Of a DNA stretch of 64,000 nt, positions 5,222 through 10,310 are shown piece after piece. Origin of the DNA: a virus (taxonomy: Duplodnaviria; Caudoviricetes); the IMG/VR virus record IMGVR_UViG_3300028549_000507, positions 64,001-128,000 of that record. One strand, given 5' to 3'. The translations under genes and the position numbers were made by a program. The stretch's first letter is position 1. The number at the start of each line of letters is the position of its first letter. Under the pieces are notes generated by a model. It was not told where the DNA came from. It did not search any database and saw only the letters and a list, made by a program, of their open reading frames with translations.

Positions 5222-5319
5222 AGCATCCTCCTTTTCAATATGTCCACTTCCCTTAAATCAGGGGTCAATACATTGATAGACTTTCAATGTATTCAGATGA
5301 TCAATATTGTATATTTCAT

Positions 5320-5335
5320 CACTATTAAATATATA
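5320..5335 (-). promoter_or_regulatory. Early-type promoter motif
   Basis: TATATAT TTAATAG TG. Confidence 0.65.
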
Positions 5336-5373
5336 ATCTATATGTACGGTTATTACAAAAATAACAATCATTA

Positions 5374-5385
5374 AACAATTTAATG
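5374..5385 (+). promoter_or_regulatory. Late-type promoter motif for thyX
   Basis: AACA ATTTAA TG, ending 38 nt before the ATG. Confidence 0.6.
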
Positions 5386-5422
5386 TGGATATTTAACCAA
5401 AATTTATTAAAAGGCGTTTTAC

Positions 5423-6805
5423 ATGAATGTTCAAGCTATTTCAATCGTACCTCCAACAGAAGCTAAAGATAACTATGCACTGACTCCAGAGCTTTGTGCT
5501 GCTGTATTGGCTAAGTTTTCAAGATCAAATGATGGTTTAGATACAATTATGAAAAATGTTGATATCGAAAACTCTCAGAAATCAGTAGATAACATATTTA
5601 AGTTTATCGATTATGGACATGCTTCTATTGGTGGTCTTACTGGCGGGATTCCGATTGTATTGGACGGAATTTCGATGTTCTTGGCATACAAACTATTCGA
5701 TATTGCACAACTTACAGATGGTCAGGAATCATCTACTCGATATATTACTATGACAAAAGAATCTCTTTTAAGTCCTGAGGAAATGGGTATTGATGATCCA
5801 GAACTTGCGGAACAATATCTTTCGGTTATGGGTGAAGCGTTTGATGTATATAATGAAGTATACAATGATCTCGATAGACTCGCAAAAGAACAACCTGAAT
5901 TAACTCGTATTCCAAAAGACGTAGCTCCTAAAGTAAGAGAGCGTATGCTTAAAAATTACGCATTAGATAGAGCTCGCTATTTCATTCCGTTCGGAACAAA
6001 GACATCTGCAGCATATATTATGACTGCTCGAGTATGGGCTGATACGATTAAACGTCTTGAATCATACGAAGTACCAGAGTTTAAAGAAGCTGCTTCTAAA
6101 ATTCGAGTTGAACTTGAGAAGTATTCTAAAAACCTCATCAGACATAGTCATGCTGATGATAACTCGATTTATGTTGCGAAGATGGAAAGTGATCTTTGGT
6201 TTAATAGTGACACTGAATATGATTCTGAAATTATTGGGTTGTATGATAGTGAACATTATACTCAACTTGATGATTTTAATCATAAAATCGATACAAGATA
6301 TGATGATTATGATGTACTTCAATCCGTTAAAACAAAATTGAACAGATATGCTCAATATTGTCATGAGATTAAGAACCGCACAATCAGATTTCTTATTAAA
6401 GGTATTACTATTGCGGAACTTCGCGACCTAAATAGACATAGATCAGGACATCGTTTCTCGGATCTTAATGTTCGCGGACTTTATATTAGTAAAGAAGTTC
6501 GTGATATGAAGAATCCTAAAATTGATGAGTTCCTTTCAAGATATGTTGATCTTGTTAGAAATATGAAAGATTACTCTTATGGTAATGAGTTGAATATCAT
6601 TCCATATAGCTTCCTCCTAGGAACTCAGGTAGATTTCGAACACACTACTCAGTTGGATAAATTTATCTATGAAGCTGAGCTTAGAACTGGCCTTGGTTCT
6701 CACTATATGTATGCTCACCACTTTACTTGTTTAACAATGGACTTTATTGATAAAAATCCATTGTTTGAAGATTATATCGAACTCGGTACAGCCGAGCCGG
6801 AATAA
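5423..6805 (+). CDS. thyX: FAD-dependent thymidylate synthase (long ThyX/Thy1 type)
   Basis: AKFSRS, DYGHASI, QESSTRY, DRARYFIP, RDLNRHR motifs. Confidence 0.85.
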   Translation: MNVQAISIVPPTEAKDNYALTPELCAAVLAKFSRSNDGLDTIMKNVDIENSQKSVDNIFKFIDYGHASIGGLTGGIPIVLDGISMFLAYKLFDIAQLTDGQESSTRYITMTKESLLSPEEMGIDDPELAEQYLSVMGEAFDVYNEVYNDLDRLAKEQPELTRIPKDVAPKVRERMLKNYALDRARYFIPFGTKTSAAYIMTARVWADTIKRLESYEVPEFKEAASKIRVELEKYSKNLIRHSHADDNSIYVAKMESDLWFNSDTEYDSEIIGLYDSEHYTQLDDFNHKIDTRYDDYDVLQSVKTKLNRYAQYCHEIKNRTIRFLIKGITIAELRDLNRHRSGHRFSDLNVRGLYISKEVRDMKNPKIDEFLSRYVDLVRNMKDYSYGNELNIIPYSFLLGTQVDFEHTTQLDKFIYEAELRTGLGSHYMYAHHFTCLTMDFIDKNPLFEDYIELGTAEPE

Positions 6806-6900
6806 AAAAAAATAAGTATTGTTTTACCACTAAACTAATAATGGGCTCTACCCATTATGCGGGATTCGGACCCGCGACTGTATACCTAATCTCTAGAGTC
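6804..6900 (-). ncRNA. Circularly permuted tRNA-like small RNA (T arm - loop-closed acceptor stem - D arm - U9 tail)
   Basis: T arm GCGGG/TCCGAAT/CCCGC (6875-6859); acceptor ATAATGG (6858-6852) with CCATTAT (6844-6838); U8 A9; D arm GTTT/AGTGGTA/AAAC (6835-6821); ends pair as GGTAT/ATACT; promoter motif immediately upstream. Confidence 0.8.
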
Positions 6901-6915
6901 ACTATTATATATGTA
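6900..6915 (-). promoter_or_regulatory. Early-type promoter motif driving the tRNA-like RNA
   Basis: TACATAT ATAATAG TG (one mismatch to consensus); predicted +1 = G6900; no CDS downstream on this strand. Confidence 0.6.
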
Positions 6916-6931
6916 TGTAAAATTTATTTTA

Positions 6932-6943
6932 AACATATCAATA
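6932..6943 (+). promoter_or_regulatory. Late-type promoter motif
   Basis: AACA TATCAA TA before ATG 6968. Confidence 0.55.
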
Positions 6944-6967
6944 GTGACAACTCTTATTAAAGGAATA

Positions 6968-7567
6968 ATGATGGAAACCCAAATTCAAGTATTTAACAGA
7001 CTATGTGCTCTAACGGGAACAGTCACAGTATTGGCTGCTGATGAAATTCTCATGCCTCATTGTGCTGATATTGGCGGAAGAGAAGATTATATAAGATCTA
7101 GTAAAGAAGAATTTTATATAACAAAAGAAAACTACCCAATACATATCGGTAAGACAGTGGTATGCCCTATCGTTCAGAAGAATAGTACAACTAGATTCGC
7201 AGATTCTATTGTAACTCTTACATCTGACAATATCCATAAATATATTACTAATAACTATACATATAGAGAAGCTAAGGATCCTACTGGATATGTTAATCGT
7301 TATGAAGTATTTACTATAAATGCCATGGGTAAATCTTATACAAATATCCTAACCGGAACAGTCGTAACTCATACCGATGCCAATAATGATTCTACAGTAT
7401 CATTCTTGATTGATACCGATATCAGCGATTCTATTTCTGCATATTCTCCTACTATAGATAGGAATTATACGTATGAAGGGAAACAAGGATATTTGAGAAA
7501 AAGAGTTATAATGAATGTTAGAAACATCGATACTCTTGAATTTGAAATCTTTAAAGTGCATCCATAA
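6968..7567 (+). CDS. Hypothetical protein
   Basis: ORF; start moved to ATG 6968 (AAGGA SD, downstream of the promoter motif). Confidence 0.75.
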   Translation: MMETQIQVFNRLCALTGTVTVLAADEILMPHCADIGGREDYIRSSKEEFYITKENYPIHIGKTVVCPIVQKNSTTRFADSIVTLTSDNIHKYITNNYTYREAKDPTGYVNRYEVFTINAMGKSYTNILTGTVVTHTDANNDSTVSFLIDTDISDSISAYSPTIDRNYTYEGKQGYLRKRVIMNVRNIDTLEFEIFKVHP

Positions 7568-7577
7568 AATACTATAA

Positions 7578-7605
7578 ATAGTGGTGAGTGTAAACTCACC
7601 ACTAT
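7578..7605. terminator. Bidirectional hairpin between convergent genes
   Basis: ATAGTGGTGAG-TGTAAA-CTCACCACTAT. Confidence 0.7.
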
Positions 7606-7610
7606 TATTA

Positions 7611-10310
7611 TTAGTTCTTTTCTTTCCAATAATATTGATGATATGAACCTCCATTAAGATTCATCTCAATACTCTCAGCAGTCTTTTTAACAGCAACTTC
7701 ATCGGTTACATCTAAGTCGAAAAAGTTAGGATCAGATTCTTCTAATAACTTCTTTACCACATCTTTATGATATTCCATTATATCAAACTCACCTAAATCG
7801 ACGCCATTATCTTTAAGGAAATCTACAACTTTAGAGAAGTCAATCTTCGCAGTTATTATAGATATAGCCTTTGACATAAGATCATTATAAGTAATGAGTT
7901 CTGTTAGATTCTTTTTACCTATAGCAATCTCTTTTATAATATCCTCTATCAGTAATAGCATTTGTTTATTTAATTCAGATAGAGTTAATTTATAGTTAGT
8001 ATTTTCAGATTTAACTATAGCATCTGCTATGAGTTTATCGATATCTATATCTTTAAGGGAAATTAATCCTTTTTCATCAATGATTTTATTAAGATCATTT
8101 AATGTAATAAATATAGAAGTATCAATCTCTTTTCCGATAACCACATATCCAGTAGAATCTTTTACTTCTGCATCCTTTTTAAGAGTAGCCCAGTCTGTAA
8201 GTGATTCTAATGTAATAAGTCCTTTATTGAAACGAACTAACAAATCTTCCATATTCTCCATCATAATTTTCATTTTATTGATATTTGATAGATAATCATC
8301 GACAATCGAGGATATATCATTAAGAATAGGATCATCTTTTAAAGTATTCATTAATTCTGTTATATATTGGTTAAATGTTTTATTTACCAAGATATTAATA
8401 TCATTCTTTATATTATTGAGAGCAACTTCAAGAAGATAATTAAAATTCACATTATCAATTGTCTTTATATTATTTGTAATAATATAGTTATTCACTATAA
8501 CTTGAGCAGTGTTTCCAGAAGGATCATTTGGATCTACAACAAATGTGCCATCTTTAATATCTCCAATAACATTCTTTATTATAGTTATTAGATCATAAGA
8601 TATAAACTCTTGAAATTTAGTATCTATGAATATAGCGATATCCTTAAAAATATCTTTTATAATATTCTGTATTTCGGCATCTGTAAGACCATTTGTAGTA
8701 TTTACAGTTATATTTGTTATATGCTGGTTTATCCAAAATAGAATAAGAGTTGCGGCAGTGGTGTCTTTACTCGGATCATTACTCTTAATTTCGCCAGCCT
8801 CATCCTTATTTATAATAGCTTTAACCTCTTCGGATGTAGTATCTTTTATTGTATCAGCAGTTTTCTTACCATCTTCGACAGGTTTAACTGCGTTAACAAC
8901 TTCCTCATACATCTGTGGTTCGGTAATTATAACCATATCTAAAAGAGGAAACATATACTTAATCTTAGCAGGATCAAACAGGAAGTCCTGAATTTCCAAT
9001 GTATATTTATATGCAGATTCCCACATCTCTTTAAGCTTATCAAACTTCAATATATCAGTAGATGGCATAAATTTACCAAGTTCAGCATCAAGTTTTTTTC
9101 CAAGATTAGTCATTATCTTATATTTTAATCTATCTGCTAGTTTTGGATTATATATTGCATCTTGTTTTGGAACATTTTCATACATATAAACATATAGTCT
9201 TTTTATGTTTAAGTTCCTAGGATCTATATATGTAAATTTATCTTTAATGTCATCAAAGAGTCCACCAACTTTTTTACCAATTTTAGATCTTTTAAATCTT
9301 GAGGATTTCATTGTAAATCCATCAAGGATCTTAGCACCAATACCAGTAGCAGTTATAGGATTGCCATTAGCATCTAATTCGGGCTTATATATCGGAGCTA
9401 TAGCATCAATTTCACTACCGAGGATAGCAAAACGTCCACCAAATTCTTTATCATTTATACCGAATACAGAAGGTTTAACATCTGCTTTTTTTAGTAGCCC
9501 TGAGAATACTTCTTCATCAACGTCAGTATAACTATTCAAAACTAATAATTTAATCAGTTGAACCATGTTACCTTTTACTTCCCTACACATACTCTTCATA
9601 CCAGAAACAACCTCTGACGGTTGGGATTCATCTAATGACAATGACTTACACTCATTGTATATATCAGAATATTTACCTACAACATATTCTACATTTTTAT
9701 AACATCCGAACTGTGCAGATATCACTCCATCTGAATGATATAAGTCCGATCTTAGTCCACTATACTCGATTTCCCAAAGATTATTCCACCATTTAAGAGT
9801 GTGAGATAATCCTCTACTAACTATTAGTTTTCGTATATAGTTATTATCATGCTCAAGATCCGCCCCTGTTATATCAAATGCCAACAGAGATGCAGTATAT
9901 ACTATGTCTGGTATAAATATTCTACTTAAGAGTGCTCCAATTAGATCATCAAGCAGTCCTCCGGCGATATTCTCAAGAGCACCCAATGCTCCAGTTAATT
10001 TATCTACACCAAGTTTCTTGAGTTTAGAACTATCTACTTTGATGGAATCCGCAAGTTTACCTTTAACATCAGCTAAACTTGGCATTCCGCCCTTTATATC
10101 TCCGAGAACCCCAGCAATTTTACCTATACTTAGCTTAGATTTACCAGATATCAACGTGCCAGATTTTATAGTATCAGAATGAGTCTTCATGCTTTGTTTG
10201 AATTTTACTAAACTCTTTCGAAACTCACTCTTGTCATCACCGGTTTTTTTATCGTACGTTCCCTTTTCGCCTTCAAAGGCGGAATTTATTAATGGCGTTG
10301 GTTCACTCAC
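7611..10310 (-). CDS. Large hypothetical protein, probably virion-associated
   Basis: 899-aa ORF, GTG start with GGAGG SD, late-type motif at 10335-10346; no recognisable catalytic motif. Confidence 0.75.
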   Translation of the reverse strand: MSEPTPLINSAFEGEKGTYDKKTGDDKSEFRKSLVKFKQSMKTHSDTIKSGTLISGKSKLSIGKIAGVLGDIKGGMPSLADVKGKLADSIKVDSSKLKKLGVDKLTGALGALENIAGGLLDDLIGALLSRIFIPDIVYTASLLAFDITGADLEHDNNYIRKLIVSRGLSHTLKWWNNLWEIEYSGLRSDLYHSDGVISAQFGCYKNVEYVVGKYSDIYNECKSLSLDESQPSEVVSGMKSMCREVKGNMVQLIKLLVLNSYTDVDEEVFSGLLKKADVKPSVFGINDKEFGGRFAILGSEIDAIAPIYKPELDANGNPITATGIGAKILDGFTMKSSRFKRSKIGKKVGGLFDDIKDKFTYIDPRNLNIKRLYVYMYENVPKQDAIYNPKLADRLKYKIMTNLGKKLDAELGKFMPSTDILKFDKLKEMWESAYKYTLEIQDFLFDPAKIKYMFPLLDMVIITEPQMYEEVVNAVKPVEDGKKTADTIKDTTSEEVKAIINKDEAGEIKSNDPSKDTTAATLILFWINQHITNITVNTTNGLTDAEIQNIIKDIFKDIAIFIDTKFQEFISYDLITIIKNVIGDIKDGTFVVDPNDPSGNTAQVIVNNYIITNNIKTIDNVNFNYLLEVALNNIKNDINILVNKTFNQYITELMNTLKDDPILNDISSIVDDYLSNINKMKIMMENMEDLLVRFNKGLITLESLTDWATLKKDAEVKDSTGYVVIGKEIDTSIFITLNDLNKIIDEKGLISLKDIDIDKLIADAIVKSENTNYKLTLSELNKQMLLLIEDIIKEIAIGKKNLTELITYNDLMSKAISIITAKIDFSKVVDFLKDNGVDLGEFDIMEYHKDVVKKLLEESDPNFFDLDVTDEVAVKKTAESIEMNLNGGSYHQYYWKEKN

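What the first reader, a model, noticed from the sequence alone, without database searches (positions are those of the whole stretch)
6804..6915. Phage-encoded circularly permuted tRNA mimic with its own promoter
Seen in sequence (minus strand from G6900): GACTCTAGAGATTA-GGTAT-ACAGTC-[GCGGG TCCGAAT CCCGC]-[ATAATGG G TAGAG C CCATTAT]-TA-[GTTT AGTGGTA AAAC]-A-ATACT-TA-T9. This is T arm, then a perfect 7-bp acceptor stem closed by a short hairpin instead of ending in CCA, then U8/A9 and a canonical D arm. The two RNA ends pair where the anticodon stem would be (GGTAT/ATACT, extendable to ~12 bp with G-U pairs). Elbow identities are kept: U8-A14, G15-C48, G18G19, G19-C56, G53-C61, U54-A58; only position 55 is C rather than U. 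An early-type promoter sits exactly upstream and no CDS uses it. Established: this T-acceptor-D order matches the tRNA-like domain of bacterial YrlA Y RNAs and permuted tRNA genes of red algae and archaea. Inference: with no anticodon loop, no CCA and no Ro60 gene in the window, it may be an early non-decoding elbow decoy for host tRNA-binding, tRNA-cleaving or tRNA-sensing defence proteins. A standard tRNA scan would probably miss it.
Basis: partly seen in the sequence, partly recalled or inferred. Interest (0 to 1): 0.92.

Follow-up and report, generated by a model that had tools for sequence, protein, structure and literature searches.

The report
Stand-alone phage tRNA-shaped small RNA
A roughly 200-kb phage carries a compact promoter-to-terminator unit for a ~92-base RNA shaped like a tRNA with its acceptor end sealed and no anticodon loop. 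It has the body plan of bacterial YrlA "Y RNAs", but neither the Ro60 protein gene nor the Ro60-docking handle that normally come with them.

Summary
On the minus strand, 6897-6804 reads: 12-bp terminal helix, T arm, closed 7-9 bp acceptor hairpin, U8/A9, D arm, U9. All tRNA elbow identities are kept except C55.

- **Family match:** Rfam's YrlA model is the only family that matches. It scores 26.9 bits (E 1e-4 for the 200-kb contig), minus strand only, below the curated cut-off of 69.
- **Promoter:** I first read the orientation wrongly and then corrected it. The phage's AT-rich "early" motif, similar to the AR9 virion-RNAP consensus, fires on the minus strand. It sits directly upstream at 6917-6899 and no ORF follows it.
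- **Terminator:** T runs of 8 or more on this strand are almost always terminators.
- **Conservation:** a 94%-identical relative has 2 changes in 95 nt, against 13% at third codon positions (P 2e-4). One of those changes breaks an acceptor pair.
- **Missing partners:** the held contig (72% complete) has no Ro60/TROVE, vWA, TerD, RtcB or CCA-adding gene. The RNA lacks the handle that tracks TROVE genes in other phages (6/6 against 0/9).

Best reading: an early, Ro60-independent YrlA-type tRNA-body mimic. Its function as a decoy or binder of tRNA-recognising proteins is inferred, not shown. The scan has noted many phage YrlA-like RNAs beside Ro60-like genes; this one is an orphan variant.

The parts
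6899..6917 (-). Phage promoter motif of the presumed early (virion-RNAP) class. Read on the minus strand it is CATACATATATAATAGTGA; the genome consensus is ATTATATATTTAATAGTGA.
   Evidence: The PWM scores 26.3 bits, rank 18 of 23 sites above 20 bits, and 22 of the 23 have this orientation. Orientation test: 18/23 have an SD-preceded ORF 19-209 nt downstream on the minus strand, against 4/23 on the other strand. 11/23 have a T run 4-23 nt upstream. The motif resembles the AR9 early consensus AAATATATATTAT-N6-G (PMC5312081). It is unchanged in the 94% relative.
6804..6897 (-). Predicted ~92-nt non-coding RNA. The 5' end is estimated 6 nt after the motif's TATAAT, by analogy with AR9, and is uncertain by about 3 nt. 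The 3' end lies within the U9 tract.
   Evidence: Fold, Rfam YrlA match, no ORF downstream of the promoter.
6882..6894 (-). 5' strand of the terminal helix (AGAGA-U-UAGGUAU). The inner 5 bp occupy the place of the 3' strand of the anticodon stem.
   Evidence: 7 + 5 bp, with three G-U pairs that would be C-A mismatches on the plus strand.
6859..6875 (-). T arm: 5-bp stem GCGGG/CCCGC and loop UCCGAAU (U54, C55, C56, G57, A58).
   Evidence: Read directly. It aligns to the YrlA T arm consensus.
6838..6858 (-). Closed acceptor stem: 7 canonical pairs plus G-C and U-G, with a 3-nt loop AGA. There is no free 3' end and no CCA.
   Evidence: In the 94% relative U70 (6854) is C, giving an A3-C70 mismatch.
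6821..6837 (-). U8, A9 and the D arm (GUUU/AGUGGUA/AAAC), with A14, G15, G18, G19 and A21.
6804..6819 (-). 3' strand of the terminal helix (AUACUUA) running into a T9 tract (6812-6804). Together they form the terminator.
   Evidence: of 28 T runs of 8 or more on this strand, 24 directly follow a stable hairpin, one follows tRNA-Met, and one is this. Such runs are depleted on the other strand (7 against about 23 expected). The relative has T8.
6931..6943 (+). Neighbouring late-type promoter (AAACATATCAATA, AACA-N6-TR class) for the divergent 199-aa ORF. It is not part of the RNA but shares the control region.
   Evidence: The PWM scores 20.0 bits, 11th best in the contig, about 25 nt before the ATG at 6968. 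The AR9 late consensus is AACA-N6-TA/G (PMC5312081).

Best explanation
This is a self-contained early gene for a ~92-nt non-coding RNA. It copies the body of a tRNA (acceptor/T-arm helix, D arm and the D-loop/T-loop elbow) in the circularly permuted layout of YrlA-type bacterial Y RNAs. The RNA ends meet where the anticodon stem would be, and the acceptor end is sealed by a loop.

**Shown or directly read:** the architecture, the promoter motif and its orientation, the terminator context, and purifying selection against a 94%-identical relative.

**Inferred:**
- The phage's virion-type RNA polymerase transcribes it right after infection, by analogy with the AR9 early promoter consensus.
- It folds into the tRNA L-shape.
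- It has no anticodon loop, no CCA and no Ro60 handle, so it acts by occupying one or more proteins that recognise the tRNA body rather than the anticodon. Candidates are RNase P, the CCA-adding enzyme, T-loop or D-loop modification enzymes, and acceptor- or elbow-directed host toxins or sensors.
[quoted passage not shown] Processing into a two-piece tRNA-like molecule is therefore possible.
For: **Architecture and significance.** (MFE -25.3, z -2.9). (YrlA 26.9 bits, E 1.1e-4 in 200 kb, minus strand only, single hit). (the re-permuted sequence is called a tRNA).

**Promoter.** define the motif. One search shows it fires on the minus strand (18/23 against 4/23 with a downstream SD-ORF) and that no ORF follows here. 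PMC5312081 gives the AR9 early and late consensus sequences, and both motif classes exist in this contig.

**Terminator.**: T runs of 8 or more on this strand are terminators in at least 24 of 28 cases, and tRNA-Met is likewise followed directly by T9.

**Selection.**: 2 substitutions in 95 nt against 27/204 at third codon positions in the flanking genes (binomial P 1.7e-4). One of the two (A26 to U) lies in a linker and adds a pair to the terminal helix.

**No Ro60 link.** No TROVE. A profile of four phage Ro60 proteins gives a best E of 0.45. No VWA_2 or TerD. The neighbouring 899-aa protein has no Ro60-like fold match.

**No handle.** In other phages the handle GTTACTTC occurs in 6/6 TROVE-positive records and 0/9 TROVE-negative records. 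It is absent here.

**Precedent.** A phage record rated 100% complete (233 kb) without TROVE carries two YrlA-like RNAs preceded by TATAAT-like boxes.
Against: - No RNA data of any kind exist.
- Only one relative could be compared and it is 94% identical, so there is no covariation.
- One of its two changes (U70 to C) breaks an acceptor pair on the proposed RNA strand, yet would be a G-U wobble on the opposite strand.
- The promoter site is among the weaker ones (rank 18/23, 4 mismatches to the 19-mer). At that mismatch level roughly 5 of 18 same-strand hits could be chance. Its predicted +1 base is U, not the usual purine.
- C55 replaces the near-universal U55, which in tRNA pairs with G18 and is the TruB target. 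This could weaken the elbow.
- The YrlA score is far below Rfam's cut-off.
- The contig is 72% complete, so a partner gene may exist.
- The proposed protein targets are pure inference.
Confidence: 0.58

Rival explanations
1. It is an ordinary Y RNA (YrlA-type) that works with a Ro60/Rsr-like ring protein. That protein would be encoded in the missing ~28% of the phage genome, be too divergent to detect, or be supplied by the host. The RNA would then gate or tether Ro60 as in bacterial Rsr-YrlA particles.
For: Its only family match is YrlA. In my sample, 4 of 5 phage records rated at least 90% complete that carry such RNAs do encode TROVE. Earlier scan notes report very divergent phage Ro60-like proteins, and one case where the gene lay just outside the window. 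The contig is 72% complete.
Against: Published YrlA RNAs lie within 4 kb of Ro60 on the same strand (PMC4201824). Here nothing Ro60-like lies within 200 kb by Pfam TROVE, by a phage-Ro60 profile, or by VWA_2 or TerD. The same-strand 899-aa neighbour shows no such fold. The RNA has neither the GNCGAAN0-1G motif nor the GTTACTTC/CTTGTTCC handle that tracked TROVE 6/6 against 0/9. Its terminal helix is a plain 12-bp AU-rich stem with a single unpaired U.
Confidence: 0.17
2. It is a decayed leftover of a tandem tRNA duplication or of a captured YrlA gene. It now serves only as hairpins (terminator or insulator) between thyX and the divergent promoters, or is constrained by plus-strand mRNA structure. 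Its tRNA likeness would be historical.
For: The single stem substitution in the relative keeps pairing on the plus strand but not on the minus strand. The region is crowded with other signals that could explain part of the conservation. ARAGORN also accepts the reverse complement.
Against: All four helices are perfect and every elbow identity but one is intact in a 33% G+C genome, in both variants, despite 13% divergence at third codon positions. The loops are as conserved as the stems. The plus strand has no U tract after the hairpins, so it is not an intrinsic terminator for thyX. A dedicated promoter with nothing else to transcribe points at it. The G-U pairs, the YrlA match and the U9 tract are all specific to the minus strand.
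Confidence: 0.12
3. It is a cis-antisense regulator. The early RNA is fully complementary to the thyX 3' untranslated / thyX-ORF199 intercistronic region of plus-strand transcripts, and would control their stability or read-through by duplex formation.
For: It lies antisense between two plus-strand genes. ORF199 has a late-type promoter motif just upstream and I saw a similar motif before thyX (not scored). No plus-strand terminator follows thyX.
Against: An antisense role does not require, and would not preserve, tRNA loop identities or the four-way junction. A tightly folded RNA is a poor antisense partner. No evidence of timing overlap exists.
Confidence: 0.06

Closest known systems
YrlA (Y RNA-like A; Rfam RF02553), the tRNA-mimicking Y RNA bound by bacterial and mycobacteriophage Ro60/Rsr (Chen et al. 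2014, PMC4201824)
   Same: The same permuted layout: terminal helix from the 5' and 3' ends, a short variable region, T arm, closed acceptor stem, U8/A9-type linker, D arm. It keeps the same conserved tRNA tertiary-pair nucleotides and a similar size. A 7-bp acceptor stem also occurs in the M. smegmatis member, which is cut by RNase P and receives CCA.
   Different: The score is 26.9 bits against a cut-off of 69. No Ro60 gene lies within 4 kb, or within the 200-kb contig. There is no GNCGAAN0-1G motif and no internal-loop 'handle'. It has C55 instead of U55. It is encoded among nucleotide-metabolism genes behind a phage early-type promoter, not beside rsr or in a tRNA cluster.
Handle-bearing YrlA-like RNAs of TROVE-encoding phages in IMG/VR
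   Same: Phage-encoded, with the same T-acceptor-D body. Rfam YrlA matches were scored for five of the six and are sub-threshold (39-45 bits).
   Different: They carry a conserved 5' GTTACTTC and often a 3' CTTGTTCC handle. Their records encode a TROVE protein in 6/6 cases. The window's RNA has neither.
Handle-less YrlA-like RNAs of a TROVE-less phage rated 100% complete, 233 kb (locus L110, two paralogues beside a tRNA cluster and a GOLLD RNA)
   Same: tRNA-body mimics in a jumbo phage with no detectable TROVE gene. Each has a TATAAT-like box upstream and a terminal helix made from its two ends.
   Different: Their terminal helices are longer and share their own conserved sequence (CCAATGCTTATTTCTT / TTAGCTTGG). 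They have U55 and sit at the edge of a tRNA cluster. There is no sequence relationship to the window's RNA beyond the tRNA-like core.
Circularly permuted tRNA genes (Cyanidioschyzon merolae and some archaea) and two-piece tmRNA
   Same: The 3' half of the tRNA body is encoded before the 5' half, and the acceptor ends are joined by an intervening loop.
   Different: Those are processed into decoding tRNAs or functional tmRNA with an anticodon loop or tag template and a CCA end. Here there is no anticodon loop to restore. ARAGORN detects no tRNA or permuted tmRNA. How those genes are processed is stated from my own knowledge, not tested.

Membership tests
YrlA / Y RNA (Rfam RF02553; Chen et al. 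2014) | Scores at or above the family's curated covariance-model threshold (69 bits) | tested here: not met
   26.9 bits over the full-length model. It is significant for the contig (E 1.1e-4) but far below the gathering score.
YrlA / Y RNA (Rfam RF02553; Chen et al. 2014) | tRNA-like domain in the order T arm, closed acceptor-like stem, D arm, with conserved tRNA tertiary nucleotides | tested here: met
   U8, A14, G15/C48, G18, G19/C56, G53/C61 and U54/A58 are present. Position 55 is C.
YrlA / Y RNA (Rfam RF02553; Chen et al. 2014) | 5' and 3' ends pair into a terminal stem | tested here: met
   7 + 5 bp helix. It is short and AU-rich and partly made of the terminator U tract.
YrlA / Y RNA (Rfam RF02553; Chen et al. 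2014) | Encoded within about 4 kb of a Ro60/TROVE gene on the same strand | tested here: not met
   No TROVE in the 200-kb contig. The phage-Ro60 profile gives a best E of 0.45. No VWA_2 or TerD. The 899-aa same-strand neighbour has no Ro60-like fold. Caveat: the contig is 72% complete.
YrlA / Y RNA (Rfam RF02553; Chen et al. 2014) | Ro60-binding module: GNCGAAN0-1G near the 5' end, or in phages the GTTACTTC/CTTGTTCC handle | tested here: not met
   No match in 6740-6990 on the minus strand.
YrlA / Y RNA (Rfam RF02553; Chen et al. 2014) | Bound by Ro60/Rsr in vivo | not testable with these tools
   Needs immunoprecipitation or pull-down.
tRNA (RF00005) / permuted tRNA gene | Complete cloverleaf with an anticodon loop, or halves that can be rejoined into one | tested here: not met
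   No tRNA by ARAGORN or Rfam at E up to 10. It is called a tRNA only after an artificial anticodon loop is inserted.
Intrinsic terminator of thyX (plus strand) | G+C-rich hairpin followed by a U tract on the strand of the gene | tested here: not met
   The plus strand has hairpins but no T run after them. The T9 is on the minus strand.
Phage early (virion-RNAP type) transcription unit, as defined for AR9 (PMC5312081) | Extended AT-rich conserved motif a fixed short distance before the start site, recurring before early genes | tested here: met
   The motif recurs at 23 sites, 22 on one strand, with 18 followed by SD-ORFs. This site scores 26.3 bits. Early timing itself is inferred by analogy, not measured.

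The most novel reading that the evidence does not exclude
The phage's injected virion RNA polymerase makes, in the first minutes of infection, a Ro60-independent tRNA-body decoy. The RNA neutralises or hijacks a host protein that reads the tRNA elbow or acceptor, for example an acceptor- or elbow-directed tRNA toxin or sensor of an anti-phage system, or RNase P or the CCA-adding enzyme. It may first be cut by RNase P and CCA-tailed into a two-piece tRNA-like molecule. This would be a protein-free RNA counter-defence built from the YrlA scaffold.
Probability: 0.2. Interest if true: 0.85.

Novelty: new variant of a known kind. Interest (0 to 1): 0.55.

Why it matters
Y RNAs that mimic tRNA are known only as partners of Ro60. 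What the tRNA-like module itself binds has been an open question since it was described (PMC4201824).

A version stripped to that module alone, with its own early phage promoter and no Ro60 handle or gene, isolates the question. Whatever binds this 92-nt RNA is a candidate for the long-sought effector of the tRNA-like domain.

If the partner is a host defence or tRNA-processing factor, this would add a class of RNA-only phage counter-measures. The unit is small enough to synthesise and test in vitro even though the phage is uncultured.

Tried and rejected
**1. Promoter orientation.** From I first concluded that the early motif pointed away from the RNA, toward ORF199. Searches showed this was wrong: the motif fires on the minus strand.

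**2. Relatives.**
- Protein-anchored scans of IMG/VR with thyX, ORF199 and the 899-aa protein found nothing.
- A metagenome scan with the ORF199 alignment found nothing.
- An exact DNA pattern in IMG/VR found nothing.
- The thyX homologues are bacterial (Fibrobacterota/Chitinispirillia, about 50% identity) or from unrelated phages without the element.
- The one informative relative (P0122, 76% aa identity, same synteny with a 164-nt gap) has no retrievable DNA.
- L137 is the same phage, 100% identical across the aligned intergenic region.

**3. C55-variant pattern scans.** Metagenome and genome contig scans returned mostly tandem identical tRNAs with encoded CCA. No homologue was found.

**4. 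RNA evidence.** No RNA holder was listed for the locus.

**5. Runs X4 and X5.** Nothing could be laid.

**6. ORF199.** No Pfam, PHROG or PDB sequence match. The AlphaFold model was unusable, pLDDT 35.

**7. The 899-aa neighbour.** No Pfam, PHROG, PDB or Atlas lead. It has 69 remote homologues with no informative Pfam domain in the eight I scanned. The N-terminal model (pLDDT 60, core 80-90) has no significant fold match in PDB or BFVD.

**8. Sigma-70 scan.** TTTAAA-18-TATAAT lies at 6933-6904, but such matches occur at chance frequency in this AT-rich DNA.

**9. ARAGORN on the re-permuted sequence.** It turned out to be a weak test of strand and loops.

**10. Literature.** Searches found no description of a Ro60-less phage tRNA-body RNA in the held library.
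Full report
**Context.** The window is bases 64001-128000 of a 200,251-bp IMG/VR virus record rated 72% complete. It has 33% G+C and two ordinary tRNA genes far away, Arg-TCT and Met-CAT. It derives from microbial-mat and biofilm metagenomes.

The finding lies in a 162-nt gap between two plus-strand genes. One is a 460-aa ThyX-family thymidylate synthase at 5423-6805 (Pfam Thy1). The other is a 199-aa ORF of unknown family at 6968-7567. Both are embedded among minus-strand genes.

**The observation.**
- a 5' strand AGAGA-U-UAGGUAU
- six unpaired bases
- a T arm (GCGGG, loop UCCGAAU, CCCGC)
- a hairpin whose first seven pairs have the geometry of an acceptor stem, closed by a 3-nt loop after two extra pairs
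- UA
- a D arm (GUUU, loop AGUGGUA, AAAC)
- one A
- the 3' strand AUACUUA running into nine U

RNAfold gives this four-way junction as the minimum-energy structure: -25.3 kcal/mol, z -2.9, 1 of 200 shuffles as stable. The complementary strand folds less well and loses the terminal helix, because its three G-U pairs become C-A.

Spacings equal those of a tRNA with the anticodon loop removed: 7-2-4-7-4-1-5 on the D side and 5-6-5-7-5-7 on the T side. The tertiary-pair nucleotides are U8, A14, G15 with C48, G18, G19 with C56, G53 with C61, and U54 with A58. All are present except position 55, which is C.

**Is it more than chance?** A scan of all 4227 Rfam families finds nothing at curated thresholds. 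With E-value reporting, the only family with a meaningful full-length match is YrlA. It covers 6799-6896 on the minus strand at 26.9 bits, E 8e-4 for the 351-nt search and 1.1e-4 for the whole contig, where it is the single hit. This is well below the family's gathering score of 69.

ARAGORN sees no tRNA or tmRNA. When I rejoined the halves around four different artificial anticodon loops, it called a tRNA each time. Controls weaken this test. It still% of versions with random loops, 17% with shuffled loops, and the reverse complement.

The strand assignment therefore rests on four things: the strand-specific YrlA match, the loop identities, the G-U pairs and the U tract.

**Promoter, including a correction.** A 19-nt AT-rich motif recurs in the contig. 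A weight matrix finds 23 sites above 20 bits, 22 of them in one orientation. One of them lies at 6899-6917 with 26.3 bits, rank 18.

I first assumed the motif fires in the direction in which I had written it. That would point it at ORF199 and leave the RNA without a phage promoter. I noted this in my notebook. The reading was wrong.

Several sites lie just after a minus-strand terminator and just before a minus-strand leader and ORF. A systematic test then settled it:
- Read on the minus strand, 18 of 23 sites have a Shine-Dalgarno-preceded ORF 19-209 nt downstream, and 11 have a T run 4-23 nt upstream.
- Read on the other strand, only 4 of 23 have such an ORF.

So the motif (minus-strand consensus ATTATATATTTAATAGTGA) is a minus-strand promoter. 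The copy at 6917-6899 ends three to six bases before the terminal helix of the RNA. This site is one of the few with no ORF behind it.

The motif resembles the experimentally defined early, virion-RNA-polymerase promoter of jumbo phage AR9, AAATATATATTAT-N6-G(+1). A second motif class in this contig, AAACATnTnAAT(G/A), matches AR9's late consensus AACA-N6-TA/G (PMC5312081). A late-type copy on the plus strand at 6931-6943 serves ORF199.

By that analogy the RNA is an early transcript starting near 6897. The timing is an inference.

**Terminator.** The contig has 28 T runs of eight or more on the minus strand. Of these, 24 directly follow a stable hairpin, one directly follows tRNA-Met, and one is the T9 after this element. 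On the plus strand such runs are depleted, 7 against about 23 expected from composition.

The T9 is thus very likely a terminator for minus-strand transcription. The next upstream minus-strand gene ends in its own strong bidirectional terminator at 7577-7606. What terminates at the T9 must therefore start between 7577 and 6900. That fits the promoter at 6917-6899.

The plus strand has no U tract after the hairpins. The structure is therefore not an intrinsic terminator for thyX.

**Conservation.** Close relatives are scarce. One NCBI contig is the same phage, 100% identical across the aligned intergenic region. A Logan contig encoding a 76%-identical ORF199 keeps the synteny with a 164-nt gap, but its DNA could not be fetched.

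A biofilm-metagenome contig of 9.1 kb is 94% identical over 6300-7500. In the flanking coding sequence it differs at 37 of 611 positions and at 27 of 204 third codon positions (13%). In the 95-nt RNA core it differs at 2, binomial P 1.7e-4 against the third-position rate. In the whole 162-nt gap it differs at 3, P 3e-7.

The two changes in the RNA are:
- A26 to U. This is a linker base, and the change adds one pair to the terminal helix.
- U70 to C. This turns the 3:70 acceptor pair into A-C on the RNA strand, but would be G-U on the opposite strand.

The U tract is one base shorter in the relative. So the element is under constraint, but there is no covariation. The single stem change is mildly unfavourable to the model.

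**Comparison with known systems.** Chen et al. (PMC4201824) define YrlA RNAs by four features:
- a terminal stem
- a 5' GNCGAAN0-1G motif thought to bind Ro60
- a tRNA-like domain in the order (V), T, acceptor-like, D
- a location within 4 kb of Ro60 on the same strand

They found such RNAs in 254 bacteria and 22 phages. They showed that the M. smegmatis member, the only one with a 7-bp acceptor stem, is cut by RNase P and receives CCA.

To see the phage side directly, I scanned IMG/VR for a T loop and a D arm separated by 19-32 nt. Of 121 hits, 11 have a fully complementary closed acceptor and 8 more have six of seven pairs, far above chance. Those I scanned with Rfam (8 loci) match YrlA at 32-45 bits, none reaching 69.

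I checked fifteen of their records for TROVE. Six have it and nine do not. Among the five rated at least 90% complete, four have it. The six TROVE-positive RNAs all carry a 5' handle GTTACTTC, and four also carry CTTGTTCC at the 3' side. None of the nine TROVE-negative ones does.

One record is rated 100% complete (233 kb) and has no TROVE. It has two paralogous handle-less YrlA-like RNAs with their own conserved terminal helix and a TATAAT-like box upstream, next to a tRNA cluster and a GOLLD RNA.

The window's RNA belongs with the handle-less group. It has no GNCGAA motif, no GTTACTTC or CTTGTTCC, and a plain AU-rich 12-bp helix.

**Search for a partner.** The contig has no match to Pfam TROVE, RtcB, the CCA-adding/poly(A) polymerase family, VWA_2 or TerD. 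A profile built from four phage Ro60 proteins finds nothing among all ORFs of 80 aa or more (best E 0.45).

The two nearest genes are uninformative. ORF199 has only two homologue clusters and an unusable model. The 899-aa protein lies on the same strand 0.7 kb upstream, behind a strong late promoter. It has 69 remote homologues, and the eight I scanned carry no informative domain. Its all-helical N-terminal core shows no significant fold match, Ro60 included.

Because the contig is incomplete and very divergent Ro60-like proteins exist in jumbo phages (earlier notes), a partner cannot be excluded.

**Interpretation.** The best-supported reading is a stand-alone, early-transcribed YrlA-type tRNA-body mimic that does not use Ro60.

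What the data show:
- a complete promoter-RNA-terminator unit
- a significant, strand-specific tRNA/YrlA-like architecture
- purifying selection

What is inferred:
- early timing
- the L-shaped fold
- action by engaging proteins that recognise the acceptor/T-arm helix or the elbow rather than the anticodon

[quoted passage not shown] C55 argues against TruB modification and may alter the elbow.

I put about 0.58 on this reading as a whole: that it is a functional, Ro60-independent tRNA-mimic RNA. I put about 0.2 on the specific decoy or counter-defence version.

The rivals are an ordinary Ro60 partner whose protein gene is unseen (0.17), a relic kept as hairpins or constrained by plus-strand signals (0.12), and a cis-antisense regulator (0.06).

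**Novelty.** YrlA-type tRNA mimics, including phage ones, are published. This scan has already recorded many beside Ro60-like genes on other DNA.

What is different here:
- no handle, and no partner gene in 200 kb
- reduction to the bare tRNA-like module
- the C55 T loop
- a dedicated early-type promoter in a nucleotide-metabolism region

That makes it a new variant of a known kind. Its interest is moderate, and would be high if the partner turns out to be a defence or tRNA-processing factor.

Noticed in passing
window 6899-6948: A 50-nt AT-rich palindrome (9-bp arms GTCACTATT / AATAGTGAC). Its low-coordinate arm overlaps the minus-strand early-type promoter and its other half overlaps the plus-strand late-type promoter of ORF199. 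It produces spurious weak Rfam hits (K10_TLS, mir-3688). It may couple the two divergent promoters.
   Followed up: partly
whole contig (e.g. window 3223, 5319, 11001, 60251; genome 16286, 27452, 43249, 58951): Two promoter classes like those of phage AR9. The early-type class has 23 sites, 22 of them firing on the minus strand, mostly before small ORFs that follow a terminator. The late-type class (AACA-N6-TR) has about 56 sites on both strands.
   Followed up: partly
window 5376-5388 (+) (approximate): thyX itself appears to have an AACA-N6-TG late-type motif about 35 nt before its ATG. The early-type motif at 5319-5337 fires away from it, into a ~190-nt minus-strand unit ending at the terminator at 5157-5135.
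   Followed up: no
L003:1590-1625 (genome about 188290-188320, minus strand, just upstream of tRNA-Met): A hairpin GGGAA...TTCCC whose loop reads like the 5' part of a tRNA (GTAACTCAGTTGGTTA, D-loop-like). This may be a tRNA fragment or a second tRNA-derived element.
   Followed up: no
L113, L127, L026, L044, L040, L115 (IMG/VR phage contigs): YrlA-like RNAs of TROVE-encoding phages share a conserved handle (5' GGYGTAG...GTTACTTC, often 3' CTTGTTCC). The literal GNCGAAN0-1G motif of bacterial YrlA is absent from the five I checked (L115 was not). The 5' handle tracked TROVE presence 6/6 against 0/9.
   Followed up: partly
L110:2735-3150 and 9181-9694: A 233-kb phage record rated complete has no TROVE gene. 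It has two paralogous handle-less YrlA-like RNAs at the edge of a large tRNA cluster, and a GOLLD RNA (156 bits) inside the cluster.
   Followed up: partly
L098:3984-4095 (minus strand): A closed-acceptor permuted tRNA-like element between two tRNA genes. After its D arm it continues into what looks like an anticodon stem strand and a CUCAUAA loop (CAU anticodon). It could be a split or permuted tRNA-Met rather than a Y-like RNA.
   Followed up: no
window 5423-6805: The 460-aa ThyX is about twice the usual ThyX length. Its nearest homologues (about 50% identity) are mostly from Fibrobacterota/Chitinispirillia assemblies, plus a few phage-like contigs. This may hint at the host lineage or at gene capture.
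   Followed up: no
whole contig: T runs of 8 or more are strongly asymmetric: 28 on the minus strand, nearly all terminators, against 7 on the plus strand where about 23 are expected from composition.
   Followed up: partly
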